From NCBI GenBank assembly GCA_037379345.1, contig CM074517.1, positions 9,982,001 to 10,046,000 on the forward strand: a stretch of 64,000 nucleotides of DNA, in the 5' to 3' direction. This DNA is from Perna viridis. Its lineage: Eukaryota. Below are positions 9,001 to 18,000 of the stretch, piece after piece. A program made the position numbers. Position 1 is the first letter of the stretch. Each line of letters opens with the position of its first letter.

Positions 9001-12000
9001 ACAATGCATAGTTAAAATCCAACACCACCCAAAGAGAGATAACTCCAATTAAATTGTATTGGCTTTTAACTATCTTCTTTGAAATTACTACACTTAAAAA
9101 AAAAATAGTTTGGCGTCTCGATTACCAGTTCAACAATATTTAGTTGAAAATTAACTTAAAATGTTTGAAATATTATTAACTGGGATATCAGTGAAATATT
9201 TAAAGTTTAAAAGAGAATTGCGCATCAATTTGAAGAAAGCATTTCTGTCCGCGAAGTTATCTGCTGGAAGCCCTTTTGTCATTCTTATACTTACAATACT
9301 TGAAGCCACTAACAAGACTTCAGAGTAAAAAATTGCAATAAAGTTTTTGTGGAAGGGGAACTTTGACTATCGGTCATTTGGGATTGGGGAAACAAACAAA
9401 ATTTTATTTTTGGCCTTGTGCAATTGAAAACAAAACAAACATGAATACAGAGCATGCCATAATAAAAACAAACACATGCAGTGCTGAATTGAACACATAG
9501 ACAAATTTACAAAAAAGCATCTATTTAAATTATGGACAGAAGAAAATATGAAGTAACAATAAATCCAGTACATTTGTACTATACTGGTTTATAGAATTAG
9601 ATTTCCAAACTTATATAGATCATAATATTTTTGAAATGGAATTAGGAATTGGTCGCAAAAACATTTTTAAAATTACCAGAAAACCTTTAAAACAAGCATT
9701 ATCATATGGTTTCATAATCTTAGAGATTCTATTAACTATCTTGAAATTTACCAGAAAACATTTTTTACTCCAAAATTTATCTTTACCTATCCTTAAGACT
9801 GATATAAAAAACTGAACTATTCTGTAATTCTAAGGCCTCAAGTGAAACAAAACAAAAAACATGTAAACCAAAACAGAAAAACACACAACAACCATACCTG
9901 ACGAGGAATAGATAAGGTAAAAGTCACTGTTAATTAAACTGAAAGGAAAAGAAACTTTGTAACAGACTGCACCATCAGAAACAAACTTTGTAACAGGCTG
10001 CACCATCAGAAACAAACATTGTAACAGACTGCACCATCTATGTTCAGCTTCACAAACCTAGATCAGATCTAATTGGTTCTTATTCTTATGGCAACACATC
10101 TTTACAATATTACTAGCTTTCTTATTGTCAGGCCATATAGAAAAAATAATGGTTGTAAACATCTTAATTTGCATGACAATTCAGAGAGAGATATTTTGGA
10201 GGTACTTAATTGTGGAAACTCTTATGTCAATTTCTTTTAAAATCATGTAGAACTGTTTTCTTGTAGGCTACATTGTGACCATCTAAAATGATTGATGAGT
10301 AATACATTATAGAATGCAGATAGACATTTGAAAAATAGAAGTTGGGTTGATATTAAAATGCTTAAAGTCTTTTTTTTTAAATCACACTCAATATTTCCAA
10401 AAAAAAAACCTTGAGATTTGACAGGTTTTATTGTCAACCAATGTTTAAGTGTGGCCAGAAATTACAATATAAAGATATCTATCTGCTCCTTCAAGTTTCC
10501 TGCTTTGCTGTACTATAAATGTGTTGTAAACTGATGACAGAAAATCTAAGAACTACTCTATATTTTATTCCCATCACACATTAACTAGAATTAATTACAT
10601 GTAATTAGAGAAACCAAGTGAGGCACAAATCTATTTCAATTTCCTGAATTTTTTTATATCGTACAAAAAACAATGACATTCTTTCAAAGGACTTATTTAA
10701 CATTTTAATTAAGTTTTCAATATGAAATGTAATATCAGTTAATATAGAAATTAAAGAACAGAAGAAGAGACTTCCAGAAGACATTACTTATCTACACTAC
10801 AACTTTGATGAATATTGCCATTTTCGCGAGTCCACAGTGTACAGTTTACATGATACATAGCTATGATAATGCACATCATTTACCTATCCCCTGTTCAGTT
10901 GTTAGAAATTTTAAAATAACCCTGAAACTATATATAGGGTTTACATTGAAAATTGATTAAAGGTGCGATTCAAACTGTTCTAACAAAAAAATGTATATCA
11001 GATCTTGAGTTTTTGAGGCAAGTGAAAGGGAAGTGATATACCTTTAACTTAATATATTTGTACATGTGTAAAAGCAAAAATAAATAAGCTTATTTTCCTT
11101 GTCATAGAATACATTTTTTACCAAAAGGAGATTAAAATTGAAAATACATATATCAATTAAGAAGTTAAAAGTACCTTAAATTCCTAGTCAAATTATAATT
11201 TGTGATGCTTTCATACTCATCTAGACAATTTCCACTAAGGGAAAGGGAAAAGGGCAAATTCATTGAGCTGTAGTGCAAAATTGGTTTTGACCTCCATTTT
11301 AGGGGTTTAGAGGAAGAGATCACTTGAAAATAAATTGAACATATCCATGCATCATGCTTCATTCCAAAGATGAAAATAAAAACTAAAACATGCAACATTT
11401 ATTACAAATAAAAGAAAACAGAAATAATAAAACATACAACAATCAATGCAAGAAACTTCTACATAAAACAAATAAAAATACACCAAAACTCAAAATTTTT
11501 CAGTAGAGGGGATATTTTGTGATAAAAATAATCCTTTAAAAAAACAAAAAGTTTAAATACTGACCATTACCTGATTTATACAGGTACAATCTGAGTTTTG
11601 ATTTTAATACTAAGCAAAACAAAATTCATAAATGCAAATCCATGAAGAAAACCATTGCCCTACAATATAGCAAAGCTACGAACCATGTTTGCGAAGCAGG
11701 GGGTGTTAGTAAACAAAAACAATGCTTGCTATATACTGAGAATGCAAGCTAAACATAGTGCCAGTTAACCTTTTTTTGACTTGGTTATTCTGTATCTAGA
11801 TGGCCCTGTTTTAGGAATGTTTCTCATTGGTTTGGTTGGACTTGGAGTCCTCTCAACTGATGTTCTGTCCCTTGCCTTGTTCAGACTGCTCATTGTAGGT
11901 CTTGTCAATGAACTGGTTCTTGATATGTCAATAGATTTCGGCCGAGACTTTGTTGGAGCTGGTTTTGTATCAGTTGTTGTTTCTGGTTTTGATTTTCGAG

Positions 12001-15000: not shown

Positions 15001-18000
15001 GTATGTCTAACTCATTTGACTGTGGCATAACATCTACAACTTCATCCTCTGGTTTTAAAACATGACATTCAGTGTTTGCATCCAATAAGTCTAAATTATT
15101 TGAATGTTGATCATTATCTGTAATATGATTTTGAACTTCAGGTTCATCGAAATTTGAATCCATTAAAGCATTGGAATTTTGTTCACCTTCATCCATTTCG
15201 TCTTCACTTTGTTCTGGATTAACATTGTGAAAACTATGATCCTGAACAATATTGTTAGTATCCTTGTCATCAACAGCATATGTTTCTATTGTATCATTCT
15301 GTAGTTCTTGTTTCTTTGATTCTGTGGCTTCCAAAGCAGCTTGCTGAAAACCCATGACGAGGCTCTCTCGACCTGGATAATCATCTATTTCTGTTCCCAT
15401 AGAAACTGCTGTTTGTTTCTGTGTCACAGGCAAAGTGTCCTCCATTTCTTCTTCCTCATATTTCTCCTGTATTGTCTGACCTGTTACTATTGGAACATCT
15501 GTTTGGTCCACTGCAGAGGGTTCAGTCTGAGATATAGAATCTCCTTGCTGATCATCAGTAAGAAGATTCAGGTCTGTTATGTTTTTTTCTTCTGGAACTG
15601 GCTGACTATCAAATTCTTCATCATCAGAGTTTTCAGATTCTTCCATTAATGTTCCCTCCACTAAACCACTTATCTGAACCTGATCAGCCTTCTGATCTCC
15701 ACCGAAAGTTTGAAATTGAGATCCTCCATTCATTTTAGCAAGCTGATTTGGGTCAGGGGTCAGTGACCTTTCTTCAAGATCAGAGTCATCACTTTCTATT
15801 GTAAAAGTGCTACTTTTGGGAACACCTTGTGCTATTTCTGAAGATTGTAGATCTTCTGAATTATCTGTTACTTTTGCAGAAGCAATTTCTAATTGATTTT
15901 GTGAAGGAACTTTTTCAATTGCATCCTCCTTTTCATTTTTAACTACTGTCATTGGATTTGAATTGTTCAAATTGGAAGCCATAACTTCAGATATGACAGC
16001 TTCAGTTACATTCTGTCTCAAAGGATCAAAATCAGAAGTACTAGGGTCAAATGCCTGACATTTATCCTGGCTGATTTCCTCATTTTCCTCGTCAGATAAT
16101 TCCTCTTGTTCCTCTGTTTCATCATACTGAACATTCTTTGTGAATGCTTCCTCGATTTGAGAAAATCCAGATGCACCAATATTTGGATCCACATTATCTA
16201 AAACATTCTCAGTATCAGACCTCTCCTGACCAGGAGGTTTCTCTACTTCATTTTTTATTTCAGGAACAATATGTTCAAGTCCATTCTCACCCTTGTCTCC
16301 TCCATCAGATTCATCACTGTACTCACTTTCCTCTGAATCAACATATTCATCATCATAATTTTCATCACCTTCATTGTAAAAGTCATTTTCTATAGCTTCT
16401 TCTGATTCTTGTAACTTATTTTGACTTTGAAAGTCTGAATCATCATAACTTTTTAATTCAGTTTCATTTGGATGTTTGATTTGATCATGATCCATGAACT
16501 CAGGTCGGGAAGCAGACACATCTGTCATCAAGAGATCAGGTGGTTGTGAAGGTTGTAAACACTCTTCATGATCAGATTGAGCAGATGGTTTTTCTGAAAG
16601 GTCGTTGGGATCAAGAAGGTCATCACTGTGGGTTTTGTTTGATTCTTTTGAAAATTCATTCACTTTAAGTAGATCGGGTTGAAATGGATTTCCAGAGCCT
16701 TCCAAAGAAGACTCATCTTCATAACTTTCATCTACTAGCATATTATCCTCATCATCATATCCTCGATTTGTATCTGAAAGACTTGAATCTAAAATTTCCT
16801 TTCCAACAAAGGAAGGACTGAAAGAACTCTGGTTTTGTGTATACATATGGCCATCATCTATCTGGTCTCCATGGTAATCATCATGGTAACCAGGCACTTG
16901 CTGATTTGCCATCTGATTGTTTAAAAGGTCACTTTGATTCATATCACAAGTAGTCATTTGACCTCCTAATACTGAAGGGTCACTTGAATCAAGTTCAAGG
17001 TTATCATCCATTGCTAAATACTGTCTTATTGTTGTCTGTAGATCAAATTACTGGTATCCTGAAATGAAAGTAAAGCAAGTATTATGAAATGTTCACAGCT
17101 AGTTATTTATTGAAAGGTCACAATGATGACCAAATACTGTATAGATGCTTATTTTCACAGTGTGCTTATTTTGGCTTATTTTAGCTTTTTGCCTAAAAAT
17201 ACCAAAATAAATTCCTTATAATACTAAATGCACCCACCACAATAAAATATGGCGATATTTTTCGTATACATTTTTGGCCTGAAAATCACAAATTTAACAC
17301 CCACCAATAAAACCCACTGTACAGCATATTAATTCTGAGTAAGTCAAACCAGAGGAAATTCATATAATGTACTATACTGGGGTATATTTTACAACAGTGA
17401 TATATTTGTTTATTTAAGCACTTACACAAAAAAACAAAAAATAAAAAAACCTGATGATGTTTGTTTCTAAAGTTAGGAATTTATGCAATAATGATTACAT
17501 ATGCCAAAATAGAAACCTCTTAAATTCACCATGCTTCTTCCCATTAAAACTTCGAAATTTTACATGTACTAATTTATGTAGAATACTTGTTCCATGATAT
17601 TTCCAACTAATTTTAAAACATACAAATAGACACAGTACATTTATTAACAAATGAGTAATTCAATACACCATTAAAGCAGGGTCATCGTGTTAAGAAATAA
17701 TCATAGCTTGCACATCATTTCAAGTTAGGGAAATAATTTTTAATAATATAATGTTTGTGGTAAATATTGAAAATAATAGACAATTTCCAACTCATCATGT
17801 CAAAAGTACATATGGATGATAAAAAAATGGTAGAACTTCTCTTTAAAGTGATAAATGCAGCGCTATAAGAATTTCCTTGGGAGTATAACACTCTACATCA
17901 AAAGCAGGTATTAAACTTTTGAAGTCTACTGGACATATGTACAAATTCAATCATTTCCTGAACTACAGAGATACCTTTCTAAACCAAAACCCTGTATAAC

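What the first reader, a model, noticed from the sequence alone, without database searches (positions are those of the whole stretch)
11770..17058. Invertebrate 'giant tau': a single 5.3-kb exon supplies a ~1750-aa N-terminal domain
Seen: four phase-compatible exons give at least 1835 aa before the second microtubule repeat, with about 95% from one exon. Established: ordinary tau and ptl-1 proteins are a few hundred residues; vertebrate big tau (exon 4a) and high-MW MAP2 gain long projection arms from large internal exons, and arm length sets microtubule spacing. Inference: this is a MAP2-sized, possibly independently evolved giant isoform. Unusually, the giant exon carries its own ATG behind an in-frame stop, so short isoforms would need a different start exon ending in phase 1. 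Automated annotation may split it off as an anonymous acidic protein.
Basis: partly seen in the sequence, partly recalled or inferred. Interest (0 to 1): 0.72.

Follow-up and report, generated by a model that had tools for sequence, protein, structure and literature searches.

The report
Mussel giant tau/MAP2-family gene
This is the start of a bivalve's tau/MAP2-type microtubule-binding gene, whose first coding exon alone encodes a 1,747-residue, mostly acidic, floppy arm; the same gene is already annotated in Mytilus mussels, so it is real but not new.

Summary
On the minus strand a 1,760-codon open frame (11765-17047) sits in an exon 17058-11770. It has its own ATG (17011), an in-frame TAA upstream, and a phase-1 donor. 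Three small phase-compatible exons follow (7640-7546, 1760-1679, 1277-1192). The last matches Pfam PF00418, the tau/MAP tubulin-binding repeat.

The exon chain is collinear, residue for residue, with 1,886-2,279-aa Mytilus proteins already in public databases under the names MAP2-like, futsch-like, tau or MAP4. The nested-gene alternative is therefore very unlikely.

- The giant exon is not an alternative 'isoform' exon. It carries the start codon and is present in 25 of 25 RefSeq isoforms of four Mytilus species. Those isoforms vary instead in the number of tubulin-binding repeats (2-10).
- Tau-family proteins of 1,300-2,000 aa are also annotated in oysters, scallops, abalone, a snail, Lingula, sea urchins and some Hymenoptera.
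- The arm matches no vertebrate projection domain. It does share two motif elements with oysters, including a 7-11-copy 'MEGS..EG.T' repeat.

Two papers read in passages still describe invertebrate tau-family amino termini as short or as later additions. Verdict: new member of a known kind, of moderate interest.

The parts
11770..17058 (-). Giant first coding exon (5,289 nt): 47 nt of 5'UTR, the start codon, and 1,747 codons plus 1 nt
   Evidence: Homologous from residue 1 to its last residue with Mytilus proteins.
17048..17050 (-). In-frame TAA upstream of the start codon, inside the exon
17009..17011 (-). Start codon ATG. The N-terminus MDDN..L(D/E)..SDP is shared with the orthologues shown.
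   Evidence: In one search, query residue 1 aligns to target residue 1 in 17 of 17 mussel-type hits.
12332..17011 (-). Acidic projection arm, aa 1-1560 (pI 4.05). The whole exon product has net charge -313, 25% D+E and no Trp.
   Evidence: every 100-aa window lies on the disordered side of the charge-hydropathy line; no Pfam family at E<=1.
15728..15829 (-). Conserved island (aa 395-428) containing EERS(L/I)TPDP, shared with Mytilus, Crassostrea and Pinctada
14903..15103 (-). 87-nt (29-aa) tandem array, 2.3 copies, inside the exon
12932..14047 (-). Array of 7-8 repeat units (aa 989-1360, period 47 aa in the last copies). Each unit has a core like GMEGSFVLEEGETFDD and a second block like S-P-E-D-E-(I/V)-P. 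The 141-nt TRF array at 12944-13497 is its youngest part.
11771..12331 (-). Basic part rich in Ser, Thr, Pro and Lys (aa 1561-1747, pI 10.5; S+T+P 43-50% from aa 1601 on). It is the counterpart of the basic, proline-rich flank of tau-family repeats.
11768..11769 (-). GT of the donor (AAG|GTTAAC), phase 1
   Evidence: ORF-only calls of the same exon from other contigs read through at the same ...KSKKG point.
7546..7640 (-). Coding exon 2 (95 nt, phase 1 to 0)
   Evidence: It follows the giant exon without a gap in the Mytilus proteins.
1679..1760 (-). Coding exon 3 (82 nt, phase 0 to 1), 89% identical to Mytilus
1192..1277 (-). Coding exon 4 (86 nt, phase 1 to 0): the first tubulin-binding repeat, ending PGGGQ. 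The gene then runs off the window.
   Evidence: PF00418, 34.8 bits against a cut-off of 27. Also.

Best explanation
The window holds the 5' part of the tau/MAP2/MAP4-family microtubule-associated protein gene of a mussel-like bivalve, on the minus strand. It is related to Mytilus but is not Mytilus.

Gene structure:
- The first coding exon (17058-11770) supplies the start codon and 1,747 residues.
- About 1,560 of these form a strongly acidic, probably disordered projection arm.
- The remaining ~190 are basic and rich in Ser, Thr, Pro and Lys.
- Three small exons follow. The third is the first tubulin-binding repeat, and the remaining repeats lie beyond the window's start.

How it most likely works (inferred from the family, not shown here):
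- The repeats, together with their basic flank, hold the protein on the microtubule lattice.
- The acidic arm stands off the surface as a charged spacer that keeps microtubules and other structures apart, as described for MAP2 and tau.
- The arm seems to be constitutive. In the Mytilus orthologues, isoforms differ by skipping repeat-coding modules (2 to 10 repeats), not by skipping the arm.
- Inside the arm, a repeated two-block motif kept since the mussel-oyster ancestor suggests that it also docks some partner several times over.
For: Shown here:
- The open frame and splice signals are as described and are far beyond chance.
- Exon 4 matches PF00418 above Pfam's cut-off.
- The giant exon alone finds 17 proteins at E<=0.001 among 7,202 candidates. 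14 of these 17 are named Mytilus proteins of 1,886-2,250 aa that carry PF00418; identity across the 17 is 43-57%.
- In one search the giant exon aligns from residue 1 to its last residue (query end 1747) in 17 of 17 mussel-type hits.
- For 5 of 5 Mytilus proteins tested, the residue after that end aligns at window 7641, the following stretch at 1760, and the first repeat at about 1248-1189 (together).
- The codon split across the first junction (G|AT) gives Asp, the residue that the two Mytilus proteins printed have there.
- Three unnamed ORF-only proteins start at the same Met and read through the same donor, so the exon is also uninterrupted in those contigs.
- Charge layout is acidic for aa 1-1560 (pI 4.05) and basic for aa 1561-1747 (pI 10.5).
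- An AlphaFold2 model of aa 960-1360 with a 12-row alignment has mean pLDDT 40, pTM 0.16 and no secondary-structure element of the listed minimum length. This is consistent with disorder, though the alignment is shallow.
- In 25 of 25 RefSeq isoforms from four Mytilus species, every gap of 5 aa or more lies at or after residue 1907 of the species' X1.
- The longest Mytilus isoforms have 10 PF00418 stretches; shorter ones have 4 or 2.

From papers (passages read):
- MAP length is related to microtubule spacing for PTL-1, tau and Futsch. That review lists Chen et al. 1992 on MAP2/tau projection domains in its references (PMC7337489).
- Big tau's arm has been proposed to increase the spacing between microtubules (PMC10179842).
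Against: - No RNA evidence for this window could be examined. The splice chain rests on phase, canonical signals and collinearity with gene models of other species. I take the XP_ RefSeq models to be computational predictions (recalled, shown by no call), and I could not see the transcript support behind them.
- The giant exon's donor (GTTAAC) departs from the usual GTRAGT.
- Only one repeat lies within the window, so the rest of the gene is inferred from orthologues.
- Disorder is inferred from composition and from a low-confidence model built on a shallow alignment.
- Microtubule binding, spacing and tissue of expression are untested.
- About 240 residues of the arm (roughly aa 490-730) align with no Mytilus protein, so part of it is specific to this lineage.
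Confidence: 0.82

Rival explanations
1. The 5.2-kb open frame is a separate, nested single-exon gene for an anonymous acidic protein and is not spliced to the tau-repeat exons.
For: - A stop follows immediately if the donor is read through.
- ORF-only gene callers list the same frame on its own, unnamed or as 'hypothetical protein'.
- The donor is not a consensus one.
Against: - Annotations under three kinds of accession (RefSeq XP_, VDI for M. galloprovincialis, CAG for M. edulis) plus the M. coruscus record all join it to PF00418 repeats.
- The homology ends exactly at the donor and continues in the next exon with no residue missing.
- The last 190 residues are the basic, Ser/Thr/Pro-rich flank expected just upstream of tau-family repeats.
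Confidence: 0.03
2. The giant exon is used only in some tissues. The main products are short, ordinary tau-like proteins that start at an undiscovered alternative first exon ending in phase 1.
For: - Vertebrate MAP2 and tau use their large exons alternatively (background knowledge, and PMC10179842 passages).
- Short tau-family models exist in other molluscs: Mercenaria 754 aa, Mya 697 aa, Dreissena 335 aa, Gigantopelta 736 aa, Argonauta 793 aa.
- 47 kb upstream of the exon are unexplored for small exons.
Against: - 0 of the best 120 hits among proteins under 1,236 aa are from Mytilus, although such isoforms would share the most words with the query.
- 25 of 25 RefSeq isoforms keep the arm.
- All cluster members listed are 1,938 aa or longer.
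Confidence: 0.1
3. The arm is chiefly a multivalent docking scaffold for an unknown partner rather than a passive spacer. The 7-8 repeat units are its working parts.
For: - The unit's two blocks are kept between mussels (period 47 aa) and oysters (period 40 aa), while the linker and the rest of the arm have diverged.
- Copy number stays at 7-11 in Mytilus and Crassostrea.
Against: - No partner is known, and no known motif or family was matched: Pfam, Atlas, and only 4 hits among 1.84 billion representatives.
- The last four copies in the window are 82% alike in DNA, so recent duplication or homogenisation contributes to their likeness within a species.
- The units make up only about a fifth of the arm.
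Confidence: 0.3

Closest known systems
Mytilus 'microtubule-associated protein 2-like' / 'futsch-like' / LOC143064600 proteins. Examples: M. edulis X1-X9, M. californianus X1-X5, M. trossulus X1-X5, M. galloprovincialis X1-X6, M. coruscus 'Microtubule-associated protein 2'.
   Same: Same start, same order of regions, and the same exon junctions as far as the protein shows them. The repeat array, the conserved island, the basic flank and the first tubulin-binding repeat are all shared.
   Different: Identity is only 43-57% over the best local alignments. Roughly aa 490-730 of the window's arm has no counterpart. Repeat-unit counts differ: 7-8 here against 7-11.
Vertebrate high-molecular-weight MAP2 (MAP2a/b)
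   Same: Similar overall size and layout: a long acidic projection arm, a basic flank and C-terminal PF00418 repeats. The C-terminal part of the Mytilus orthologue finds vertebrate MAP2 at E of 1e-33 to 1e-60.
   Different: No match to the MAP2/tau projection-domain family PF08377, which the vertebrate proteins carry. No phmmer similarity between the arms. That the MAP2 arm comes from alternatively used internal exons is recalled. Here the arm sits in the start-codon exon and looks constitutive.
Big tau (MAPT exon 4a)
   Same: An acidic, disordered, poorly conserved enlargement of the projection domain encoded by one large exon (PMC9755724, PMC12896622, PMC10179842; passages).
   Different: Exon 4a is an alternative internal cassette of about 250 aa (355 aa at most). 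This exon encodes 1,747 aa, contains the ATG, and is present in all orthologue isoforms seen.
Molluscan tau-family proteins with many tubulin-binding repeats (Gottschalk and Hefti 2022, PMC8985376: 7-10 repeats, a ten-repeat C. gigas protein)
   Same: Same gene family and the same clade. The Mytilus orthologues have up to 10 PF00418 stretches.
   Different: In the passages and word counts I saw, that paper does not treat protein length or the N-terminal domain: 0 occurrences each of 'length' and 'N-terminal'. The window shows the N-terminal side only.
Drosophila tau (361 aa) and C. elegans PTL-1 (about 450 aa)
   Same: Invertebrate members of the same family, with repeats at the C-terminus (PMC9755724 and PMC7337489 passages).
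   Different: They are a fifth of the size or less and have no long acidic arm.
Squid axolinin and other high-molecular-weight MAPs of molluscan axons (PMC2114230; listing and abstract only)
   Same: A molluscan MAP of high molecular weight, known biochemically.
   Different: No sequence link was tested. The only cephalopod tau-family model seen here is 793 aa (Argonauta). This is a lead only.

Membership tests
tau/MAP2/MAP4 family | Tubulin-binding repeat (Pfam PF00418) | tested here: met
   Exon 4 (28 aa) scores 34.8 bits against a cut-off of 27, E 1.6e-08.
tau/MAP2/MAP4 family | Several such repeats in tandem near the C-terminus | tested here: inconclusive
   Only one PGGG lies in the window and the gene runs off its start. 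Orthologues have 2-10 PF00418 stretches.
tau/MAP2/MAP4 family | Basic region rich in Ser, Thr and Pro just upstream of the repeats, with an acidic N-terminal projection part | tested here: met
   aa 1561-1747 have pI 10.5, with S+T+P 43-50% from aa 1601. aa 1-1560 have pI 4.05.
tau/MAP2/MAP4 family | Repeat-coding exons bordered by phase-0 introns after the PGGG motif | tested here: met
   Exon 4 ends ...PGGGQ|gt in phase 0. For vertebrates, Sündermann 2016 has a passage on a repeat exon 'flanked by phase 0 introns'. The exact vertebrate positions are recalled.
tau/MAP2/MAP4 family | Binds and stabilises microtubules | not testable with these tools
   This needs co-sedimentation or imaging.
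Vertebrate MAP2 (high-molecular-weight form) | MAP2/tau projection domain, Pfam PF08377 | tested here: not met
   0 Pfam families at E<=1 on the giant exon. In one search, PF08377 is listed only for vertebrate proteins, never for the invertebrate ones.
Big tau (exon 4a type) | Alternative internal cassette exon of about 250 aa between constant N-terminal exons and the proline-rich region | tested here: not met
   The exon holds the ATG behind an in-frame stop and encodes 1,747 aa. It is present in 25 of 25 orthologue isoforms.
MAP1B/Futsch (the name NCBI gives two M. californianus isoforms) | MAP1-type domains rather than PF00418 repeats | tested here: not met
   Pfam finds only PF00418 above its cut-off in four Mytilus orthologue isoforms, and nothing in the giant exon. 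What defines MAP1 proteins is recalled, not tested further.

The most novel reading that the evidence does not exclude
Long acidic arms are the usual state of the tau/MAP2/MAP4-family gene in many marine invertebrates, not a vertebrate invention. In mussels and oysters the arm is more than a spacer. It carries a 7-11-copy, two-block motif array (core like MEGS-x3-(D/E)EG-x-T, then S-P-x-D-E-h-P) that has been kept since their common ancestor and docks an as yet unknown partner many times over. In this reading the number of microtubule-binding repeats, not the arm, is what splicing tunes.
Probability: 0.3. Interest if true: 0.55.

Novelty: new member of a known kind. Interest (0 to 1): 0.36.

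Why it matters
Two papers I read in passages describe invertebrate tau-family proteins as having shorter amino termini, or as a basic microtubule-binding prototype to which vertebrates added N-terminal parts and exon 4a:
- The Big tau review PMC10179842.

The gene models found here say otherwise for mussels, oysters, scallops, abalone, Lingula and sea urchins.

This locus shows one clean genomic way of building such an arm: a single 5.3-kb start-codon exon, enlarged in part by tandem duplication. If the arm is constitutive, bivalves offer a natural test of what a MAP2-length arm does when it cannot be spliced out, and of repeat-number splicing (2-10 repeats) on a much wider scale than 3R/4R tau.

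For genome annotation the practical point is modest. Eukaryote-aware annotations already join the exon, while ORF-only callers list it as an anonymous protein.

Tried and rejected
- **AKAP idea.** An AKAP-like amphipathic helix, as in the MAP2 N-terminus, was my first guess for the element conserved with oysters. The alignments put the conserved island elsewhere (aa 395-428, EERS(L/I)TPDP), so I dropped the idea untested.
- **Repeat core in other tau-family proteins.** A 24-aa profile of the repeat core, run with all filters off over all proteins fetched by then, gave 0.5 bits or less for the vertebrate rows listed and for Lingula and Gigantopelta. It gave one marginal copy (12.7 bits) in the scallop Mizuhopecten.
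- **Repeat array against 1.84 billion representatives.** Only 4 hits at E<=0.001: one named Mytilus protein and three unnamed fragments. Oysters did not reach the threshold there, although they do in the local searches.
- **ESM Atlas.** No usable hit for the repeat array or for aa 1-530.
- **Literature search for the motif strings.** 0 papers.
- **Literature on giant molluscan tau-family proteins.** The search listings showed none by title or abstract, and the passages read from five papers none. About 1.7 million PubMed Central papers are not searchable. Supplements are closed, so the species and protein tables of Sündermann 2016 and of Gottschalk and Hefti 2022 stayed unseen.
- **All-against-all phmmer of 27 N-terminal parts.** Most cross-class hits examined lie in the last 60-130 residues before repeat 1. 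The Pinctada-Mizuhopecten match is longer, about 350 residues. These hits say nothing about the acidic arms.
- **RNA scans.** Rfam and tRNA scans of the window found nothing.
- **Not done.** No eukaryotic genome collection is on hand, and genome contigs holds bacteria and archaea only, so it was not scanned. I therefore could not test whether oysters, scallops or gastropods also encode their arm in one exon.

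
Full report
**1. The observation**

On the minus strand an open frame runs stop to stop from 17047 to 11765, 1,760 codons.

At its 5' end a pyrimidine-rich tract ends in AG at 17060-17059, so an exon can begin at 17058. An in-frame TAA lies at 17050-17048. The first ATG is at 17011, with G at -3 and +4.

At its 3' end the sequence reads AAG|GTTAAC. The exon therefore ends at 11770 with one base of the next codon (phase 1), and reading through gives a stop at once.

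Three further exons with canonical AG/GT borders follow:
- 7640-7546, phase 1 to 0.
- 1760-1679, phase 0 to 1.
- 1277-1192, phase 1 to 0, ending PGGGQ.

From these coordinates the four exons add up to 5,505 coding bases, or 1,835 codons, with 95.2% in the first exon.

Chance is excluded. The probability of 1,760 open codons is about 1e-59 to 1e-61 from base composition. The next longest frame in the window is 322 aa, inside a minisatellite. 200 shuffles of the exon reached at most 159 aa.

The window has no N and only one PGGG, so the gene continues past the window's first base.

**2. What it is**

I searched exon by exon. I did not build or search a joined protein of the window.

Exon 4 matches the tau/MAP tubulin-binding repeat PF00418 at 34.8 bits against a cut-off of 27. 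The giant exon and exons 2 and 3 match no Pfam family at E<=1.

The giant exon alone finds 17 proteins at E<=0.001 among 7,202 candidates:
- 14 are named proteins of five Mytilus species, 1,886-2,250 aa long, all carrying PF00418. They are variously called MAP2-like, futsch-like, tau, MAP4, uncharacterized or hypothetical.
- 3 are unnamed proteins of 1,621-1,715 aa without PF00418.
- Identity is 43-57%, so the window comes from a relative of Mytilus, not from Mytilus itself. I did not try to name the species.

**3. Is the giant exon joined to the repeat exons?**

In one search the giant exon aligns from its residue 1 (to target residue 1) to its last residue, 1747, in 17 of 17 mussel-type hits.

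For the 5 of 5 Mytilus proteins that I ran back against the window, the residue after that end aligns at 7641, the next stretch at 1760, and the first repeat at about 1248-1189. No residue is left over (together).

The codon split over the first junction, G|AT, gives Asp, which is the residue that the two Mytilus proteins printed have there.

The three unnamed proteins begin at the same Met and end 16 residues after ...KSKKG. They are calls of the bare open frame that read through the same donor. This shows that the exon is also uninterrupted in those other contigs.

The models that join the exon carry three kinds of accession (XP_ in four species, VDI for M. galloprovincialis, CAG for M. edulis), plus the M. 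coruscus record. I take the XP_ models to be computational predictions (recalled); I could not see the transcript support behind any of them, and there is no RNA evidence for this window. That is the main weakness of the case.

**4. Anatomy of the exon product (1,747 aa, 194 kDa)**

- Net charge is -313, with 25% Asp plus Glu and no Trp.
- Residues 1-1560 are acidic (pI 4.05).
- Residues 1561-1747 are basic (pI 10.5), with 43-50% Ser+Thr+Pro from residue 1601.
- Every 100-residue window lies on the disordered side of the charge-hydropathy line.
- An AlphaFold2 model of residues 960-1360 with a 12-row alignment has mean pLDDT 40, pTM 0.16 and no secondary-structure element of the listed minimum length. 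This fits disorder, but the alignment is shallow.

This acidic arm, basic flank and C-terminal repeats are the layout of tau, MAP2 and MAP4 (established knowledge).

Part of the exon grew by tandem duplication. There is a 141-nt array of 3.9 copies at 82% identity (12944-13497) and an 87-nt array of 2.3 copies (14903-15103).

**5. Conserved pieces inside the arm**

Against Mytilus the arm aligns well over about aa 1-485, weakly over 730-1036, and well from about 1170 to the end. Roughly aa 490-730 has no counterpart.

Beyond mussels, only oysters give significant local hits: Crassostrea angulata 68 bits, Pinctada 46 bits, C. virginica 37 bits. That makes 20 of 243 fetched proteins hit in all, 17 of mussel type and 3 oysters.

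The alignments show two shared elements.

- **An island at aa 395-428.** It contains EERS(L/I)TPDP (window 15829-15728). By regex it is present in Mytilus, Crassostrea and Pinctada, but not in M. trossulus or the three unnamed proteins.
- **A repeat unit.** Its core resembles GMEGSFVLEEGETFDD, and a second block resembles S-P-E-D-E-(I/V)-P.

Details of the repeat unit:
- The window has 7 strict copies between aa 989 and 1340. Scoring aa 960-1360 alone gives an eighth, degenerate copy.
- A 24-aa profile finds 6-11 copies in the Mytilus proteins (6 in one record), 8-10 in the three unnamed full-length proteins, 10-11 in two Crassostrea proteins, 5 in Pinctada and 3 in one Magallana gigas protein. 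It finds one marginal copy (12.7 bits) in the scallop Mizuhopecten. The remaining rows listed (Pecten, Lingula, the gastropod Gigantopelta, fishes) score under 3 bits, and no sea urchin, insect or other gastropod protein was listed at E<=10.
- The period is 47 aa in mussels and 40 aa in oysters, and both blocks are kept while the linker differs.
- A search of 1.84 billion representatives with aa 960-1360 found only 4 proteins at E<=0.001: one Mytilus protein and three unnamed fragments.
- No paper in the searchable library contains the motif strings, and the Atlas gave nothing.

**6. Is the arm an alternative isoform?**

In the orthologues it is not.

I aligned 25 RefSeq isoforms: M. edulis X1-X9, M. 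californianus X1-X5, M. trossulus X1-X5 and M. galloprovincialis X1-X6. Every gap of 5 residues or more lies at or after residue 1907 of the species' X1, inside the repeat region. The gaps come in steps of 30, 94, 124, 154 and 184 residues.

The longest isoforms have 10 PF00418 stretches. Shorter ones have 4 or 2.

A search for relatives under 1,236 aa with the C-terminal part of a Mytilus orthologue listed no Mytilus protein among its best 120. Only the 8,000 candidates sharing most words were scored, but a Mytilus short form would be among them.

The arm therefore looks constitutive, and it is the number of microtubule-binding repeats that splicing varies. An unseen alternative first exon cannot be excluded.

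**7. How unusual is a giant invertebrate family member?**

Not very, in the databases. The same C-terminal query found PF00418 proteins of these lengths:

| Taxon | Length (aa) |
|---|---|
| Lytechinus | 1,847 |
| Strongylocentrotus | 1,712 |
| Lingula | 1,310 |
| Haliotis | 1,589 and 1,642 |
| Four scallops | 1,797-2,021 |
| Crassostrea | 1,929 and 1,983 |
| Magallana gigas | 1,518 |
| Pinctada | 1,372 |
| Biomphalaria | 1,521 and 1,547 |
| Several Hymenoptera | 1,260-1,424 |

None of these invertebrate proteins carries PF08377, the MAP2/tau projection-domain family, which the vertebrate MAP2 hits do carry.

An all-against-all comparison of 27 N-terminal parts finds arm similarity only within groups: mussels with oysters, scallops with each other, sea urchins with each other, and vertebrate MAP2 with itself. 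Most hits between classes that I examined lie in the last 60-130 residues before the first repeat; the Pinctada-Mizuhopecten match is longer, about 350 residues.

Either the arms arose several times, or they diverge too fast to be traced. These data cannot tell which. They do show that the mussel arm predates the mussel-oyster split.

**8. Literature**

All of the following are passages read, not whole papers.

- Sündermann et al. [quoted passage not shown]
- Gottschalk and Hefti 2022 (PMC8985376) report 7-10 repeats in some molluscs and a ten-repeat C. gigas protein. The words 'length' and 'N-terminal' do not occur in their text.
- The Big tau papers treat the long arm as a vertebrate feature, and invertebrates as a microtubule-binding prototype (PMC9755724, PMC12896622, PMC10179842).
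- Prokop 2020 (PMC7337489) relates MAP length to microtubule spacing for PTL-1, tau and Futsch, and lists Chen et al. 1992 among its references.
- The listings of four searches showed no paper on giant molluscan tau-family proteins by title or abstract.

Supplements are closed and part of PubMed Central is not searchable, so this absence is provisional.

**9. Mechanism**

This is inferred from the family; nothing here tests it.

- The repeats with their basic flank bind the microtubule lattice.
- The 1,560-residue polyanionic arm projects from it and sets distances to neighbouring microtubules and organelles.
- The Ser-Pro and Thr-Pro sites in the repeat units, the island and the basic flank are candidate phosphorylation sites.
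- The conserved repeat array suggests repeated docking of one partner, which I rate at about 0.3.

**10. Verdict**

The locus is a new member (a new species' orthologue) of an already annotated kind. What is not yet in the papers I could search is:
- the general point that long arms are common in invertebrate family members;
- that the arm is constitutive in mussels;
- the conserved mussel-oyster motif array.

Interest is moderate.

Noticed in passing
window 17973-18472, 23970-26277, 26548-27291, 32147-33009, 48198-48990, 51685-52211, 52293-52591, 53715-54114, 55230-55514, 60327-60813: The 47 kb upstream of the giant exon hold many minisatellite arrays with units of 30-58 nt. The largest has a 36-nt unit in 65.7 copies over 2.3 kb. 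These arrays produce several of the longer spurious open frames in the window, up to 322 aa. No tRNA or Rfam family is present anywhere in the window.
   Followed up: partly
window 14903-15103 (minus strand, inside the giant exon): This is a second internal tandem array (87 nt = 29 aa, 2.3 copies). The surrounding protein repeats a short 'QSN-x-LDL(L/M)'-like motif several times. Similar 'DLL' motifs recur near the N-terminus. I did not test whether these are conserved or known motifs.
   Followed up: no
Mytilus orthologues P0251, P0267, P0007, P0253: Isoforms differ by modules of 30 and 94 residues in the repeat region, which gives 10, 4 or 2 tubulin-binding repeats. This range of repeat-number splicing is far wider than 3R/4R tau.
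   Followed up: partly
P0001, P0015, P0016, P0269-P0277: Unnamed ENA and JGI/IMG entries, some labelled 'hypothetical protein', are bare open-frame calls or fragments of this same exon from other contigs. It appears that mussel-type DNA in such sets gets listed as anonymous acidic proteins. I did not trace their origin.
   Followed up: no
and one search hit lists: Source names for one and the same family are inconsistent: MAP2-like, futsch-like, tau, MAP4, uncharacterized, and even 'mucin-2' for an ant protein (P0071).
   Followed up: no
P0212, P0218: PF00418 proteins are listed under the fungi Racocetra fulgida and Gigaspora margarita (Glomeromycota, recalled), the latter named 'tau-like'. 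Sündermann 2016 also mentions a Rhizopus protein. I did not examine whether these are true fungal genes or contamination.
   Followed up: no
P0267, P0007 residues 1471-1498: There is a weak match to Pfam Phage_TAC_16 (18-19 bits against a cut-off of 27) in the acidic arm of two M. galloprovincialis isoforms. It is below the cut-off and I take it for chance.
   Followed up: no
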